DNA of 6,783 nucleotides, from NCBI GenBank assembly GCA_000004985.1, contig GG739017.1. The stretch is one strand, 5' to 3'. This document shows positions 2 through 6,783 of this stretch, in pieces. The position numbers were made by a program, and so were the translations under genes. This DNA comes from Naegleria gruberi. Its lineage: Eukaryota. Numbering within the stretch: position 1 is the stretch's first letter; each line of letters starts with the position of its first letter. Under the pieces are notes generated by a model. It was not told where the DNA came from. It saw nothing but the letters and a program-made list of their open reading frames with translations, and searched no databases.

Positions 2-529
2 GGTGTGAACTTTACAGTTTGTTGTGATTTGGTTTTAAGTAATGGAAAGGTTGGACATAATTTGGATTTTTCAAAAGAAACTCAACATGTTAAAGTGAAT
101 GTTTGTAATCCTGATTTGGTTTATCAAGGTGTTTCAAAACATCCAAGATTTACAATGGGTGCTTTCTTAGAAGCTTTGGATACTTTATTTTTCATTTCAA
201 ATGGAAAGAGACAACATTTACAATATGAATTATTTGGAAAACCACACAAAGTCACCTATGATTATGCAAAGAAAGTTTTAATTGACCAATTGAGATCCTC
301 ACATGCTGGTCATGAAGATAGAGATAATGTCGATGATATGACTATTTATGCAATTGGTGACAATCCATTGAGTGATATCAAAGGTGCAAATGGTGCTGGA
401 TTTGTTTCCATGTTATTGAGAACTGGAGTTTGGCAATCAAGTGAAGAAAATGATTCACAAAATCCTGCAACTCACGTATTTCCATCTGTTAGGGAAGCAT
501 TTAAATTTATTTGTGATAAACATTTATAA
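2..529 (+). CDS. C-terminal fragment (5'-truncated by the window edge) of a HAD-superfamily subfamily IIA hydrolase (NagD/CECR5/YKR070W-like); stop TAA at 527-529
   Basis: The frame is open from nt 2, and the track's M at position 5 is a GTG so the ORF continues upstream of the window. It contains the HAD-IIA motif III lysine context LFGKPHK (~233-250) and a motif IV-like IYAIGDNPLSDIKGANGAG (from ~347), followed by a hydrophobic cap and end. Codon usage matches the other genes (GAA, CAA, AGA, GGT). Confidence 0.55.
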   Translation, partial: GVNFTVCCDLVLSNGKVGHNLDFSKETQHVKVNVCNPDLVYQGVSKHPRFTMGAFLEALDTLFFISNGKRQHLQYELFGKPHKVTYDYAKKVLIDQLRSSHAGHEDRDNVDDMTIYAIGDNPLSDIKGANGAGFVSMLLRTGVWQSSEENDSQNPATHVFPSVREAFKFICDKHL

Positions 530-924
530 TCGAATTATTTTACAACAATATTTACAAAATTGGAAAGGCTATACATATTCAGTGATCAATTCTCTTGGCA
601 TTCAGTCTGCAAAATAATCTTTCGCTTTTTGTTTTGGATAACTTTGATCTGATCCATTCTGTTTTCACTGTTGACAGATATTCGTGTAAATCAGTTGTGG
701 TTGACTTTATGTGTGAGTTTTGCAAAGTGATGAGTCTGGCAGGCATTTTGTTGTGTGTTTCTTGTTGAGGTATTTTATTTTGAATTAATTGTAAATTGCA
801 TGTGGGATCTATTTAAAGATTTTTTACCTGTTCCAATATTTTATGTAATTCCAAAAAACAATGGAATTTTTTAATACACGGACGCAACGCTAAGAAGAGA
901 GCAGGTCGTAGATATGTATGACAC

Positions 925-1140
925 ATGGGAGGAGCTGTGCCTCAATTCCAACATATGGGACAAGGTGCTCAACAAGTTCCTCAAATTCATAACCAATACT
1001 ATAACCAACAATCTCAAGCTCAACAAGGTAGGATAAACCAACTAGCCAACTCAAATAATGGCATGGGTCATTTTCAAGTTCCAATGAACAATCAACCACA
1101 AACCCAAGGAGGTGGTCATCAACCTCACAATAACTTCTAA
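925..1140 (+). CDS. Hypothetical small Q/N-rich protein (71 aa)
   Basis: ATG-initiated ORF very rich in Gln/Asn/Gly/Pro (MGGAVPQFQHMGQGAQQVPQIHNQYYNQQSQAQQ...), encoded almost entirely with CAA/AAC/GGT/CCA codons, as in yeast coding sequence. A TATTTAAAG TATA-like element lies ~110 bp upstream (810-818). Downstream of the stop are AT-rich 3'-end-like motifs (TATGTGTATAC, tandem AAATAACAAAT x2 at ~1166-1195). No recognisable domain, and an alternative out-of-frame ATG at 914 gives a 38-aa peptide. Confidence 0.25.
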   Translation: MGGAVPQFQHMGQGAQQVPQIHNQYYNQQSQAQQGRINQLANSNNGMGHFQVPMNNQPQTQGGGHQPHNNF

Positions 1141-1272
1141 GCTAGATTCCATATGTGTATACTAAATTATTAAATAACAAATAAATAACAAATAAATTAT
1201 TATTCCTCTTCGTGTAACAACTCATTCATTGTCATTGGTTATTTTAAGGCAATGAAATATATATTATAGGAA

Positions 1273-1653
1273 ATGTTTATGTTTATTGTACTTGCTAACA
1301 AGGAGGGTGGATACTATGAGGAGATGGTTCCAATCCTCTCATATTTGGGAAACTCTTTAGCCCACTTGATCATGTTATATGAGCACGAGCTTCAGCATAG
1401 TGAGTCCTTAAATGAATCACATTTTGTTAATAGTGATAACCAATTTGATAACTTAATCAACCCACTATTGGGGGAAAGTGAATTGTTTAAGTCAGCCGAA
1501 CTGTCATTAGCATTATTTAGGGAATTAGAGGAGGGAATTATTAACAAAAGAATCATCAAAACAAACAAGAGGCTTATCGTTTGTCCTAGGAGGCAAACTA
1601 TTGCAAATGATTGTTCTCTTTTCAAGGAATGCTTGAACAAAAAGTGCATGTGA
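1273..1653 (+). CDS. Hypothetical ORF (126 aa), no recognisable domain; overlaps the 3' part of the minus-strand ORF 2007..1525
   Basis: ATG-initiated ORF with no similarity recognised. GAG is used more often than GAA and AGG is frequent, unlike the confident genes here, which argues against it being real. Its last 129 nt overlap the opposite-strand 160-aa ORF, so at most one of the two is coding there. Confidence 0.15.
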   Translation: MFMFIVLANKEGGYYEEMVPILSYLGNSLAHLIMLYEHELQHSESLNESHFVNSDNQFDNLINPLLGESELFKSAELSLALFRELEEGIINKRIIKTNKRLIVCPRRQTIANDCSLFKECLNKKCM

Positions 1654-2007
1654 GCTAACGGTTTTGAAAATTAATTTATCTGGAGCTTGAAGTTGTACTT
1701 TTTCTAAGCTTTCTTTTATGTGAGGTAGACCAGATAATCCAATTACTTCCAAAAGTGGTTGATCAGTCTCAGAAAAGCTCTTTAATTTTAACATCAAGGA
1801 ATAGGTACTTGATGTTATCTCAGCTACCTGTTCCGAAAGGTGGCTCATTAAGCACCATTCGCTTACCCTGTTATCAGAGTTTTGTAACAGTGTTTTAAAG
1901 CCTTGTTTGATGATTTCCATGAACTTGCTCTTCCAACTCTGTAGTGTGAATAAGCTCATTTTTTTCAGTTTGGGCACTAACGAAAACTTTTTTTGGAAAT
2001 ATTCCAT
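1525..2007 (-). CDS. Hypothetical protein (160 aa), no recognisable domain
   Basis: True ATG at 2007 is the first in-frame ATG after an upstream stop (TAA at 2047-2049 on the minus strand). It is the longest ORF in the 1150-2500 interval, and an AT-rich putative promoter lies at 2050-2400. Codon usage is only weakly biased, and there is no motif-level identification. Confidence 0.3.
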   Translation of the reverse strand: MEYFQKKFSLVPKLKKMSLFTLQSWKSKFMEIIKQGFKTLLQNSDNRVSEWCLMSHLSEQVAEITSSTYSLMLKLKSFSETDQPLLEVIGLSGLPHIKESLEKVQLQAPDKLIFKTVSSHALFVQAFLEKRTIICNSLPPRTNDKPLVCFDDSFVNNSLL

Positions 2008-2518
2008 TAATAATAAGGCCTTATTAGTTAATTTACCAAAAGTATTTTATTTCCACAACACATGGTGGTAATTTAGTTTTGAAAATGTTTTGCATCTCAT
2101 TTGCAGTTCAATCCATTCTATCAAAGTCTGAACATACAAACTATCCATCATTACAATGATTAAAATAATTCAATAAAGTTCTTCAAAGTAAACTGATTGA
2201 ATGCGTTTTTCTGAAAGGTAATTCACACCCTTCCCGCAACTTTCGCCACCGACTCTTCTTGATGGTTTCAGGTTGTAAAGATATTGAAATAAGGAACTAA
2301 ACATGACAATGCATAGAATAAAATTAAGGCTTGAAAAATGAATTTAGAAGTAATATTTTAAATTTTAATGATGAATAATGATTTTTTTGGATGTTAAAGA
2401 GCTAGTTGTTTGATGATATATAGAACATTGTATCAATCTTTTAATATTTTACAAATGATCAACAAAAAACTTCTCATCAAACCCAGTTCCATTCTTAACA
2501 TTTTATTTTATGAAATGT

Positions 2519-4661
2519 TTAATTTACTTTCCTCACAATAAGAGGCCAACCAACTTGAATGACAACGAACTTGTGGATAGTTTTATCATTATTGCCAAGT
2601 AATTCTTGTTCTTTTTTGGCATATTGTTTAACCTTAGAACTTGCCTCATTTAAGATACTTTCAACTTTAACATATTTGTTTGCCCATTTTTGAAAAACTA
2701 GCATATTCAATAACTGGCTTTCATCAGCTTGTAATAATTCTTTAAATTTTTCCTTAAACATATAAGGTTTCCAAATTCTAATAGTAGAATATTGTGATAA
2801 ATACATTGGTCTCAAACGTTTCAATTTAATGATAAATATGTCATTGTCGGTTGAAATAACAAGGTCAGCTCTTAATTCAGTATATTCTTTTCCATTGATA
2901 TGATAATTTGTATATTCCTTTTCTGCTCTAAAAGTAAAATCTTTGCTTCTATATAAAGAATATGATCTCAATGCAGATTCAATACAAGATTGTAAACTTC
3001 TTTCAGACATATCATTGTCAAACACTGTTTCTTGCTTGCTTAAAATACTCCAAAGTAATTTTTTCAAATTATCTTGAGTTGGTTCATTAATAAAAGTTGA
3101 TATATCACTTTCACGTAAAGATATAAGTCTACGTAACTGTTCCAAATATTGAACCTTTGCAATTTCATTTGGAATTAACAATTGTTTTGGATTCATTTGT
3201 TTTGAGGATGATTCTGTGAAAGTAATCATACCATGATAATACATGAATGATAAAGCATTATCACGAATCTTTTGTATATCTTCTTCATTGGATGGTGGAT
3301 CAATAATCTCTCTTAATTTCAGTGAAGGATAAATTGACTCGGTTACTTCTATATAATCTTTTGAAAGTAATTGTTGAATAATATCATTCGATACAACTGA
3401 TGATGCCAAAGTTGCAAAAACGTTCTCACTGATCATTGTGTTGGTATCTGTTAATATTGATAATGGAATTTCTTGTTTTTGTAGAACAGCATTTCTGAAA
3501 GGTTCATCTTTTACAAGTTTGTTCAAAAAGAACATTGAAAGAGTTGTGTTGAATAGAGCATGTTTTGAACCAGGAAAATGATAACCTTTATAATACTTTT
3601 TCATGGTTGAAATGGTAATATCTTGATCATTTCCAATAATATCAATGTTATTTAATGCCATTCTCAAATCATTTTCTGTAAAACCAACCAAACCACCAAA
3701 TATCTTATCAGAGGAAATATTACTGGAAACATTATATCCAGATGCATCAGCAAGAGCAATAGGAGTGATACCAGTGATGATACTACGAAAATCTTGTAAA
3801 CCAGTAGCGGAAGACTCTTTCAATCTTTCAAAGAAAGAACGAATTGGTGAAGATGTTGGATCTCCTCTCTTTCCTTCAACTATTAATTGATATTTTTCAG
3901 GATTTTCAAATATTAATTTGTTTGCAAATCTATCATATTCATCAATTAATACCATTAATTTGCCTTTTCTCTTGACTAAAAGTTGGATAAGTTTTTGATA
4001 AGTATCAAATGAATCATTTTGATTAATGCTTACCTCACCACCCATACCATAACATTCCAAAAATCCTTCAATGGTTGTATTGATTTTTCTCATGAAGCCG
4101 TTGATTAATATCTTCCGTTGTACCATCAACTTGAATAGAAAAATCTAACTTTAAAACATGATATTGATTCTTTCCAGGTGTCCAATTCTGTTCATCACCA
4201 ATCCATAAACCAGAAAATAATTCATCAAATTCATCTTTCTTGTTAACATCATAATATAATGAAAGCATTGATAGTAATAGTGATTTTCCCCATCTCGGAG
4301 GACGAACCAAAAATAATTGATCACCTGCCTCCTCTAATCGTGGAATTAAATTAGTTTTATCAACATAAAATTGTTTACTTCTTCGGATGGAACCAAAATC
4401 TGATTTTCCATATGGAAAATATGGTACTAATAATTTTTTATCATTAATGTTGTTAAATTTAATGTTGTTATTTGTTTGTTTTAGAAATTTTAATGAATTT
4501 GAATAGTTTTTAAATTGATTAATTGTACACTTATTATTATTGATGATTAAATTATTAATTTTGAAGATTGGTGTGTTGTGCGGTGTAATTTTAGGTGATG
4601 CAGTAAATAATTGCAATCCTGATGATTTTGTGCTGATTTTACTAAGGACGTTATGTTTCAT
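2519..4661 (-). CDS. AAA-ATPase-like (Pfam PF09820 type: YVDKT ... RPxRxGKSL) protein with C-terminal PD-(D/E)XK-nuclease-like domain (PF08011/DUF1703 type) and an N/K/S/T-rich N-terminal leader; reading frame interrupted by a single-nt frameshift in the T5 run at 4084-4088 (track ORFs 4682..4068 and 4129..2519 are the two halves)
   Basis: N-terminal half: PYFPYGKSDFGSIRRSKQFYVDKTNLIPRLEEAGDQLFLVRPPRWGKSLLLSMLSLYYD is the hallmark block of the predicted AAA-ATPase family (..DF..LR..N..YVDKT...I..L......FLSRPRRFGKSL..S.L). Family-consistent blocks follow downstream: LKLDFS, LIDEYDRFANKL, YKGYHFPG, and a C-terminal GKEYTELRADLVISTDNDIFIIKLKRL that resembles the GRIDLvi....iiiEFK nuclease core. 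The first true ATG is at 4661; the track's 4682 start is a TTG, and a TGA lies just upstream in frame. The two ORFs overlap in different frames. The downstream frame opens immediately after a TAG at ~4150-4152. Removing one A from the AAAAA run yields a continuous ...DINQRLHEKINTTIEGFLECYGMGG... sequence. Confidence 0.7.
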
Positions 4662-4732
4662 ATTTTTCCATTTTTTAACCAATCTTCAAAATGACAACAT
4701 TCACTGTGAATTCTACTTTTCGGTTCGTTCAT

Positions 4733-5527: not shown

Positions 5528-5938
5528 NNNNNNNNNNNNNNNNNNNNNNNNNNNNNNNNNNNNNNNNNNNNNNNNNNNNNNNNNNNNNNNNNNNNNNNNN
5601 NNNNNNNNNNNNNNNNNNNNNNNNNNNNNNNNNNNNNNNNNNNNNNNNNNNNNNNNNNNNNNNNNNNNNNNNNNNNNNNNNNNNNNNNNNNNNNNNNNNN
5701 NNNNNNNNNNNNNNNNNNNNNNNNNNNNNNNNNNNNNNNNNNNNNNNNNNNNNNNNNNNNNNNNNNNNNNNNNNNNNNNNNNNNNNNNNNNNNNNNNNNN
5801 NNNNNNNNNNNNNNNNNNNNNNNNNNNNNNNNNNNNNNNNNNNNNNNNNNNNNNNNNNNNNNNNNNNNNNNNNNNNNNNNNNNNNNNNNNNNNNNNNNNN
5901 NNNNNNNNNNNNNNNNNNNNNNNNNNNNNNNNNNNNNN
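5528..5938. other. Assembly gap (411 N) inside the intergenic region between the divergent AAA-ATPase-like gene and the DEAD-box helicase gene
   Basis: Uninterrupted run of n from 5528 to 5938. The ORF-track entries made of X (5369..5941, 5487..6146, 5519..5986, 5524..6009) are artefacts of translating this gap. Confidence 0.99.
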
Positions 5939-6181
5939 CATTCCGTTCTCTCACCATCTCATCACTCTCACACAGCAAGGTTGTAAACAACAAACACGCT
6001 AGCCAATGAATCTTTTGCCTTGAGTTGTGTTGAATCACAACGCGTTGTTTGCTTGGTGCTGCTGGCAGCCGAAGAGAATAAACAAAGCCTGACCAACGCA
6101 CATCTTGTTTGAATCGTTTTCGAAAAAAAAATAACAACAACCCCACTTACTTACTACCCGTAACAATTTTAAATTTAAAAA
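5939..6181 (+). promoter_or_regulatory. Putative core promoter / 5'-UTR of the DEAD-box helicase gene: pyrimidine (CT)-rich tract followed by an A-rich leader
   Basis: CATTCCGTTCTCTCACCATCTCATCACTCTCACACAG (5939-5975) is a pyrimidine-rich tract of the kind found upstream of well-expressed yeast genes. CGAAAAAAAAATAACAACAACCCCACTTACTTACTACC and AAATTTAAAAAATGG put A at -3 and G at +4 of the ATG at 6182. There is no in-frame ATG upstream (TAA at 6170-6172). Confidence 0.35.
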
Positions 6182-6783
6182 ATGGTTAATAATGATATTA
6201 CCGTAACTGTAGAAGATGACTACAAGCAAAAGAGCGGAAAGGCTAGATATGAACAAAAAGAAGTTAAGGAATTTGATGATATGAATCTTAAGGAAGATTT
6301 ACTCAGAGGAATTTACTCTTATGGTTTTGAAAAGCCATCAATTATCCAACAACGTGCCATCTTGCCAATCACTACTTCTGAACCACCAGCAGACGTTATT
6401 GGTCAAGCCCAATCTGGTACTGGTAAGACTGCTACTTTTACTATTTCATTGCTTCAAAGATTAAATATTTCTCCTGATGTTATCCAACCACAAGGACTTG
6501 TTTTGGCTCCAACAAGAGAATTGGCTCAACAAATCCACAAGGTCATCATGTCATTGGGTGAATATATGAAGGTTAAAGTACACGCTTGTGTTGGTGGTAC
6601 TAAAGTTCAACACGATATTGCCATTCTTGAAGAAGGTGTCCACATTATTGTTGGTACTCCTGGACGTGTTTTCCACATGATTCAAAGTGGTCACTTGAAC
6701 GTTAACAGCATTAAGATGTTAGTTATCGATGAAGCCGACGAAATGTTGAGCAGAGGTTCAAGGATCAAATTAGCCATCTTAAG
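6182..6783 (+). CDS. FAL1: DEAD-box ATP-dependent RNA helicase, eIF4A-III / Fal1-like (N-terminal ~200 aa; 3'-truncated by the window edge); apparent 1-nt deletion at 6755-6758
   Basis: Translation gives ...[33 protein letters not shown]... (Q-motif), [22 protein letters not shown] (Walker A / motif I at ~6401-6430), [13 protein letters not shown] (motif Ia), [19 protein letters not shown] (motif Ib) and [11 protein letters not shown] (DEAD / motif II at 6728-6739). LLRGIY(S/A)YGFEKPS, GTPGRVF and DEADEML match eIF4A-III/Fal1 rather than canonical eIF4A (VRGIFGYG). Strong yeast-optimal codon bias. It is not in the ORF track because it has no stop inside the window. Confidence 0.85.

What the first reader, a model, noticed from the sequence alone, without database searches (positions are those of the whole stretch)
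4068..4152. Frame break of the AAA-ATPase-like gene at a T5 homopolymer: assembly error or recent pseudogenisation
The N-terminal ORF (frame B) ends at TGA 4068-4070. The C-terminal 536-codon frame (frame C) opens only after a TAG at ~4150-4152. The only consistent junction is therefore the AAAAA run (minus strand) at 4084-4088. Removing one A gives ...LDFSIQVDGTTEDINQRLHEK|INTTIEGFLECYGMGG..., a sensible continuation of the family's post-LDFS region. Together with the N gap and a second homopolymer-associated frameshift in the helicase gene, this suggests homopolymer miscalls in a draft assembly. If the break is real, the gene is a very young pseudogene with no other lesions.
Basis: seen in the sequence. 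Interest (0 to 1): 0.5.

Follow-up and report, generated by a model that had tools for sequence, protein, structure and literature searches.

The report
Single-base frame break, probably sequencing error
One extra A in a five-A run splits an otherwise intact ATPase-nuclease-like gene of the amoeba Naegleria gruberi, and because the same small draft scaffold demonstrably carries raw-read errors elsewhere, this is most likely an ordinary sequencing artefact (less likely a very young pseudogene).

Summary
On the minus strand, one gene (4661..2519) of Pfam family PF09820 is split into two frames. Both frames are stop-free only in 4071-4144. Homology places the extra base at 4084-4089, which is the A5 run plus the adjacent G. 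Removing one base gives a 713-aa protein colinear with intact homologues: 93.6% identical to N. gruberi NAEGRDRAFT_62270, and 98.6% downstream of the break. Against an intact copy on an independent contig, every other indel is a multiple of three, and dN/dS is 0.26-0.39 on both sides of the break. Intron and programmed-frameshift readings fail.

The window is N. gruberi DNA. Its 845-nt second contig is 100% identical to an independent assembly of the N. gruberi eIF4A locus over 687 nt. It has clustered indels at both ends, including four 1-nt deletions in the last 30 nt of this essential gene. That is the profile of a single unpolished Sanger read, so the scaffold contains uncorrected read errors.

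Assembly error is therefore the best explanation (about 0.68). A real, very recent frameshift in one copy of a multicopy, gene-converting family cannot be excluded (about 0.27). It gains some support from window-specific radical substitutions, including ExK to KLK. Reads are needed to decide. Interest is low.

The parts
2519..4661 (-). Whole interrupted coding region of an AAA-ATPase_like (PF09820) family gene, running from ATG 4661-4659 to stop 2521-2519. It is 713 codons after removal of one base.
   Evidence: It is colinear with the intact homologues P0241, P0242, P0002 and P0001.
4068..4661 (-). N-terminal reading frame: 197 codons plus TGA at 4070-4068. It contains the Walker A motif RPPRWGKS at 4304-4281.
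   Evidence: The Walker A residues R120-S127 are invariant.
2519..4144 (-). C-terminal reading frame, 541 stop-free codons. It contains a Walker B-like motif LMVLIDEYD at 3958-3932 and a degenerate PD-(D/E)XK-like motif (RADLVI...IIKLK, with K in place of E at 2827-2825).
4071..4144 (-). The 74-nt stretch in which both reading frames are stop-free. The frame switch must lie within it.
4084..4089 (-). Best-supported position of the one surplus base: the A5 run at 4084-4088 plus the adjacent G at 4089 (GAG AAA AAT C, where GAG AAA ATC is expected).
   Evidence: In the deletion scan, the alignment score to five homologues peaks here. The only indel against L001 that is not a multiple of three maps here.
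5528..5938 (.). Scaffold gap of 411 N between contig 1 (1-5527) and contig 2 (5939-6783).
5939..6783 (+). The 845-nt contig carrying the 5' flank and first 192 codons of N. gruberi eIF4A (ATG at 6182). It is error-free over 6070-6756. It has clustered indels and mismatches at 5954-6069 and four 1-nt deletions in 6756-6783.

Best explanation
The frame break is a single surplus A in the A-run at 4084-4088 of an otherwise intact Naegleria gruberi gene. The gene encodes a predicted P-loop ATPase of Pfam family PF09820 with a C-terminal region that resembles a PD-(D/E)XK nuclease. The surplus base is most likely a base-calling or consensus error in a small, low-coverage draft scaffold built from Sanger-type reads, not a biological lesion.

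Shown:
- The gene is one colinear unit, and exactly one base is in excess.
- The window is N. gruberi DNA.
- The same scaffold contains uncorrected read-end errors, which break an essential gene.

Inferred: the A-run surplus has the same origin as those errors.
For: 1. Only one base is wrong. The merged protein gives one PF09820 match across the junction. It aligns without a gap at the junction to intact 704-709-aa homologues. Against the intact copy on L001, all other indels are 3, 3, 3, 6, 9, 9 or 12 nt, and only the one at the junction is 1 nt.
2. Both halves evolved under constraint. dN/dS against L001 is 0.26-0.32 upstream. It is 0.38 in the divergent C-terminal third, where dS is about 0.8-1.0.
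3. The source is N. gruberi. The eIF4A residues 1-192 are identical to the annotated N. gruberi protein P0245. The region downstream of the break is 98.6% identical to NAEGRDRAFT_62270.
4. The scaffold contains raw errors. Contig 2 (845 nt, about one read length) is 100% identical to the independent contig L003 over 6070-6756. It has indel clusters at both ends, including four 1-nt deletions in the last 30 nt, inside the conserved SRGFKDQIYAIF motif of essential eIF4A. The only published N. gruberi genome (NEG-M) was Sanger sequenced (PMC9928731).
5. The surplus base lies in one of only 17 runs of five or more identical bases, which cover 4% of the CDS. Such runs are typical places for a length miscall.
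Against: - The break is isolated. There is no other indel in 2.1 kb, and the 830 nt immediately downstream are 98-100% identical to L001. The proven errors in contig 2, by contrast, are clustered at read ends. The site is about 1.4 kb from the nearest contig end.
- The window copy carries derived radical substitutions at family-conserved positions. These are GG to RS at 3001-2996 and ExK to KLK at 2827-2825. All are G to A on the coding strand, which would also fit relaxed constraint.
- No intact protein or gene model for this particular copy was found in the protein collection. So there is no independent evidence that an A4 version exists.
- Read-level data could not be examined.
Confidence: 0.68

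Rival explanations
1. The surplus A is real. Replication slippage in the A-run, possibly at the edge of a gene-conversion tract, has very recently inactivated one copy of a multicopy family. The break falls between Walker A (4304-4281) and Walker B (3958-3932), so neither fragment could be a working ATPase. The copy would be a young pseudogene, or a null allele that is still segregating.
For: - The family is redundant in N. gruberi: three full-length copies on one scaffold, one partial copy and this one. Loss of one copy should therefore be tolerated.
- Where an outgroup polarises the differences from P0241, four or five derived amino-acid changes fall on the window lineage and none or one on P0241. 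They include GG to RS and loss of the acidic residue of the ExK motif, and all are G to A.
- The break is an isolated event in otherwise clean sequence.
- It sits exactly where the similarity switches. Upstream the sequence is P0002-like (TTEDINQRLHEK). Downstream it is identical to L001 and P0241 (INTTIEGFLECYGMGG...).
- No intact gene model for this copy exists in the searched collection.
Against: - There is only one frame-disrupting lesion and no premature stop in 509 downstream codons.
- dN/dS is about 0.3-0.4 on both sides, so any inactivation would have to be extremely recent.
- The same scaffold demonstrably holds sequencing indels that break an essential gene. That makes error the more economical explanation.
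- Active-site residues are also degenerate in some intact paralogues, for example P0004 and P0008. The ExK to KLK change is therefore not proof of decay.
Confidence: 0.27
2. The two frames are joined biologically. The routes considered are a short spliceosomal intron, programmed +1 ribosomal frameshifting or transcriptional slippage at A AAA AAT, or expression as two separate polypeptides.
For: Both frames are open and overlap by 74 nt. A +1 shift at the A-run would restore the full protein.
Against: - Every GT..AG pair in the overlap whose length would restore the frame is 13-61 nt long. Each would remove residues that are encoded here and that align one-for-one with homologues.
- All homologues examined are single uninterrupted ORFs through this site. 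L001 reads CAC ACA AAA ATC in frame. No frameshift site is therefore conserved.
- From general knowledge, an A5 run is far shorter than the runs known to cause efficient transcriptional slippage.
- The break lies between Walker A and Walker B, so a split product would not be a functional ATPase.
Confidence: 0.03

Closest known systems
Naegleria gruberi NAEGRDRAFT_62270 (XP_002682256.1; P0241) and its paralogues NAEGRDRAFT_62226 and NAEGRDRAFT_78045
   Same: The length and architecture match. Identity to P0241 is 93.6% overall and 98.6% downstream of the break. The Walker A and Walker B motifs and the C-terminal tail ...VIQVGWPLIVRKVN are the same.
   Different: The window copy has a unique N-terminal region of about 80 residues with in-frame indels. 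It has the HEK variant at the junction, as in P0002. It also has the one-base surplus, GG to RS, and ExK to KLK. No annotated protein corresponds to this copy.
Pfam PF09820 (AAA-ATPase_like) with PF08011 (PDDEXK_9) proteins of bacteria such as Desulfamplus, Desulfosarcina and Prevotella
   Same: The N-terminal predicted ATPase domain matches at E=2e-41. Bacterial homologues are about 28-34% identical over 60-88% of the length.
   Different: PF08011 is not detected in the window copy even at E up to 10. It is only marginal in P0002 (E=0.012). The eukaryotic proteins carry an extra N-terminal extension. No member has a solved structure by sequence search, and none matches an NCBIfam model. The function is unknown.
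Indel errors at low-quality read ends in low-coverage draft (Sanger) assemblies
   Same: There is a small scaffold with a sized N gap. It contains a read-length contig that is perfect in the middle and riddled with small indels at both ends. There is also an isolated one-base length change in a homopolymer.
   Different: The A-run site is not at a contig end and is not accompanied by neighbouring errors. Its attribution to this cause is an inference.

Membership tests
Pfam PF09820 AAA-ATPase_like | Significant match to the family profile above the gathering score | tested here: met
   142.4 bits against a cutoff of 26.1, E=2e-41. It is one stretch, residues 83-305, on profile positions 1-199 of 201 of the frame-corrected protein.
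Pfam PF09820 AAA-ATPase_like | P-loop (Walker A) and Walker B-like acidic motif | tested here: met
   RPPRWGKS (4304-4281) and LMVLIDEYD (3958-3932). The residues are invariant among seven heterolobosean homologues. The two motifs lie on opposite sides of the break.
PD-(D/E)XK nuclease, Pfam PF08011 PDDEXK_9 (usual C-terminal partner domain) | Profile match and D...(D/E)xK catalytic motif | tested here: not met
   One search gives no PF08011 hit for the window's C-terminal 224 aa at E up to 10. P0002 is marginal at E=0.012 and the bacterial P0042 scores 1.5e-06. The motif reads RADLVI...IIKLK here, against IIE[FL]K in the paralogues.
Processed or decayed pseudogene | Multiple disabling lesions and relaxed constraint (dN/dS near 1) | tested here: not met
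   There is one 1-nt indel only. There is no in-frame stop in 713 codons after correction. dN/dS is 0.26-0.39. A very young pseudogene is not excluded.
Programmed ribosomal frameshift site | Frameshift and slippery site conserved in homologues | tested here: not met
   L001, P0241, P0242, P0002 and more distant homologues are single ORFs through the site.
Spliceosomal intron | GT..AG interval whose removal restores the frame without loss of homologous residues | tested here: not met
   the six candidates are 13-61 nt long, and all delete residues that align with homologues. The homologous gene on L001 has no intron.
Sequencing or assembly indel error | Independent sequence of the same locus shows a different run length, or reads show low quality or coverage at the site | not testable with these tools
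   No independent copy of this paralogue was retrievable. The criterion is met only for the neighbouring contig 2, against L003.

The most novel reading that the evidence does not exclude
The A5 frameshift is real, and this unannotated copy is a silent member of a bacterial-type ATPase-nuclease gene family in Naegleria. The copies of this family exchange sequence by frequent gene conversion: tracts of 100% nucleotide identity lie next to tracts of 55-70% identity. Broken copies would then serve as donors or recipients in a diversification or repair cycle rather than simply decaying.
Probability: 0.04. Interest if true: 0.45.

Novelty: not a real feature. Interest (0 to 1): 0.1.

Why it matters
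The main value is for annotation. If the break is an error, the locus should be annotated as one intact 713-aa member of a multicopy N. gruberi family, not as two fragments or a pseudogene. The small scaffold should also be treated as low-quality sequence, since its eIF4A fragment duplicates an intact, annotated gene. If the break is real, it is one more young pseudogene in a redundant family, which is of minor interest. The side observation may deserve a separate look: a bacterial-type PF09820 family that is multicopy and mosaic in Naegleria. It is not what the finding is about.

Tried and rejected
- Intron. All GT..AG pairs in the overlap were enumerated. This was rejected because each deletes homologous residues and the homologues have no intron there.
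- Programmed frameshift or slippage. This was rejected because the homologues are single ORFs.
- In-register gene-conversion chimera between the HEK-type and HTK-type paralogues as the cause of the break. An in-register join gives A4, not A5, by reasoning. It does not explain the surplus base.
- Assembly chimera of two annotated paralogues. This is not supported. The N-terminal part matches no annotated copy, and the C-terminal part differs from P0241 at 6-7 residues.
- Independent DNA for this copy or for the N. gruberi paralogues. Exact-protein look-ups for P0002, P0241, P0243, the two window fragments (three start variants) and two flanking ORFs all returned nothing. A protein-guided scan and an exact 28-mer scan of JGI metagenome contigs returned nothing.
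- Synteny between the window and L001 flanks. None was found by blastn or tblastx, so L001 is a different locus.
- Literature search for PRJEB11402. No paper was found.
- Relatives with known structure or curated function. There was no meaningful PDB or NCBIfam match.
- tRNA and tandem-repeat scans. These found nothing relevant.

Full report
**What is in the sequence.** The minus strand between 4661 and 2519 carries two long reading frames.
- The first runs from ATG 4661 to TGA 4070-4068 (197 codons; ORF 4682..4068; translation).
- The second is stop-free from 4144 to 2522 (541 codons) and ends at stop 2521-2519.
- The nearest upstream stops in the second frame are TAG 4147-4145 and TAA 4153-4151.
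- Both frames are open only in 4071-4144.
- The minus-strand sequence there reads ...CAA CGG CTT CAT GAG AAA AAT CAA TAC AAC CAT TGA. The A5 run is at 4084-4088.

**It is one gene with exactly one base too many.**
- After one A is deleted, the 713-aa product gives a single PF09820 (AAA-ATPase_like) match of 142 bits, E=2e-41. The match covers residues 83-305 and so runs straight across the junction at 204/205.
- The product aligns over 100% of its length with intact proteins of 704-705 aa, with no gap at the junction.
- The closest relative is N. gruberi NAEGRDRAFT_62270 (P0241). It was hidden inside a 90% cluster and recovered. Identity is 93.6% overall. Downstream of the break only 7 of 509 residues differ.
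- I deleted each base from 4150 to 4065 in turn and scored the products against five homologues. Almost any deletion in 4070-4146 opens the frame, but the score peaks only for 4084-4089, with 4091 tying for two homologues. It is homology, not ORF logic, that singles it out, because a second five-base run at 4139-4143 also lies in the overlap.
- The break separates Walker A (RPPRWGKS, 4304-4281) from the Walker B-like LMVLIDEYD (3958-3932). Both motifs are invariant in the family alignment.

**Comparison with an intact copy at the DNA level.**
- An ENA metagenome contig (L001, 7549 nt, sample ERZ929261) carries an intact 704-codon paralogue.
- In a global alignment with the window gene, the indels are 12, 9, 9, 3, 3, 3 and 6 nt, plus a single 1-nt indel at the junction.
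- At the junction L001 reads CAC ACA AAA ATC (H T K I) in frame.
- Identity along the gene is strongly mosaic. It is 100% over 3731-3402 and 98-100% over most of 4083-3250, but 55-70% in the 5' 200 nt and the 3' 450 nt.
- The flanks are unrelated.
- This is the pattern of gene conversion among paralogues at different loci.
- Nei-Gojobori dN/dS between the two copies is 0.26 for codons 1-80 and 0.32 for codons 81-204. It is 0.38 for codons 481-713, where dS is about 0.8. Both halves were therefore under purifying selection for essentially all of their divergence.

**Alternatives that would make the break biological but harmless.**
- All GT..AG intervals within the overlap whose removal restores the frame are 13-61 nt. 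Each deletes residues that align one-for-one with homologues. L001 has no intron there.
- All homologues are single ORFs, so there is no conserved frameshift site.
- I reject the intron and programmed-frameshift readings.

**Where the window comes from and how good the sequence is.**
- The 3' end of the window (6182-6783) encodes the first 192 residues of eIF4A (PF00270).
- A full-length query found the annotated N. gruberi eIF4A (P0245, 407 aa). Its first 192 residues are identical to the window's.
- The same protein is encoded exactly by an independent contig, L003, from the same ENA sample as L001.
- The window's second contig (5939-6783, 845 nt, after the 411-N gap at 5528-5938) aligns to L003 as follows:
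  - 100% identity over 6070-6756 (687 nt).
  - Near its start, two 2-nt deletions, one 3-nt deletion and three mismatches within 5954-6069.
  - At its end, four separate 1-nt deletions within 6756-6783.
- The deletions at the end turn GGT TTC AAG GAT CAA ATT TAT GCC ATC TTT AAG (G F K D Q I Y A I F K) into GGTTCAAGGATCAAATTAGCCATCTTAAG.
- The same four deletions are seen against a more distant Naegleria contig, L002.
- A read-length contig that is perfect in the middle and degraded at both ends, breaking an essential gene that is annotated intact elsewhere, is the signature of an unpolished single read.
- The only published N. gruberi genome (NEG-M) was Sanger sequenced (PMC9928731).
- The errors pile up at the window's last bases, so the window probably ends at a scaffold end. 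It may be an entire small scaffold. This last point is inference.

**Weighing error against a real lesion.**

For error:
- The scaffold demonstrably contains uncorrected indels.
- The gene has a single lesion, and that lesion is in a homopolymer. Runs of five or more bases make up only 4% of the CDS.
- Both halves show constraint.

For a real, very recent frameshift:
- The lesion is isolated in otherwise clean sequence and is 1.4 kb from a contig end.
- The family is redundant. Three full copies lie on a 941-kb scaffold, and one partial copy lies on a 7.6-kb contig.
- No intact model of this copy exists in the protein collection.
- Four or five derived amino-acid changes fall on the window lineage and none or one on P0241. 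They include GGA GGT to AGA AGT (3001-2996) and GAA to AAA in the ExK motif (2827-2825). All are G to A on the coding strand.
- These changes could reflect relaxed constraint. They could also reflect ordinary paralogue divergence, because other intact paralogues also have degenerate catalytic residues.

I put error at about 0.68, a real young pseudogene or null allele at about 0.27, and everything else at about 0.05.

**What the gene is.** It belongs to an uncharacterised family with an N-terminal predicted P-loop ATPase (PF09820). In bacteria the family usually also has a C-terminal PD-(D/E)XK nuclease domain (PF08011).
- In the window copy PF08011 is not detectable. In P0002 it is marginal.
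- There is no solved structure by sequence search and no NCBIfam model.
- Eukaryotic relatives appear in Naegleria, Willaertia, an aphelid and some transcriptomes.
- The bulk of the hits are bacterial, at about 30% identity.

**Verdict.** The finding is ordinary: most probably an assembly artefact in a low-quality N. gruberi scaffold. The reads could not be examined. The decisive test is to count the A-run in reads anchored on the copy-specific patch at 4092-4125.

Noticed in passing
window 5939-6783 (vs L003 1-853): The eIF4A-bearing contig is 100% identical to an independent N. gruberi contig over 6070-6756. It has two 2-nt deletions, one 3-nt deletion and three mismatches in 5954-6069, and four 1-nt deletions in 6756-6783. 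This is the profile of a single raw read. The eIF4A fragment duplicates a gene that is annotated intact on a 413-kb scaffold.
   Followed up: yes
window 2519-4661 vs L001 3179-5293: The identity between paralogues is mosaic: 100% nucleotide identity over 3731-3402 and 98-100% over about 4083-3250, next to 55-70% at both gene ends, with unrelated flanks. This indicates gene conversion within a multicopy N. gruberi family (NAEGRDRAFT_78045, 62270, 62226 and a partial copy).
   Followed up: partly
window 3001-2996, 2827-2825, ~3352-3350, ~3913-3911 (minus strand): The derived amino-acid changes of this copy are all G to A on the coding strand: GG to RS, E to K in the ExK nuclease motif, V to I and M to I. 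This could mean relaxed constraint, mutational bias or ordinary paralogue divergence. It was not resolved.
   Followed up: partly
window 4092-4125 (minus strand): A 34-nt patch just upstream of the break differs from L001 at about 10 positions, yet it encodes TTEDINQRLHEK, exactly as in paralogue P0002. Immediately downstream the window is identical to L001 and P0241. The frame break therefore sits at a switch of paralogue similarity.
   Followed up: partly
window 2-526 (+): An open frame runs off the window start with a HAD-hydrolase-like C-terminal domain (PF13242, E=9e-14). This is presumably the 3' part of a neighbouring gene.
   Followed up: no
window 893-2046 (both strands): There are several overlapping ORFs with no Pfam match: a Q/N-rich frame at 922-1137 (+), 1270-1650 (+) and 1528-2046 (-). 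A perfect 11-nt tandem repeat (2.5 copies) lies at 1171-1197. The gene structure here is unresolved.
   Followed up: no
one search hit list (family distribution): PF09820 proteins related to this gene are mostly bacterial (Desulfamplus, Desulfosarcina, Prevotella; about 30% identity). Scattered eukaryotic members occur in Naegleria, Willaertia, Amoeboaphelidium and transcriptomes. This is suggestive of an old horizontal acquisition. It was not tested phylogenetically.
   Followed up: no
L002 1-1564: The JGI metagenome contig of a related Naegleria eIF4A (88% nt identity) lacks about 62 nt relative to the window after ...LAPTRELAQ. It also contains a duplicated HRIGRSGRYGRKG segment, so it is itself a flawed assembly.
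   Followed up: no
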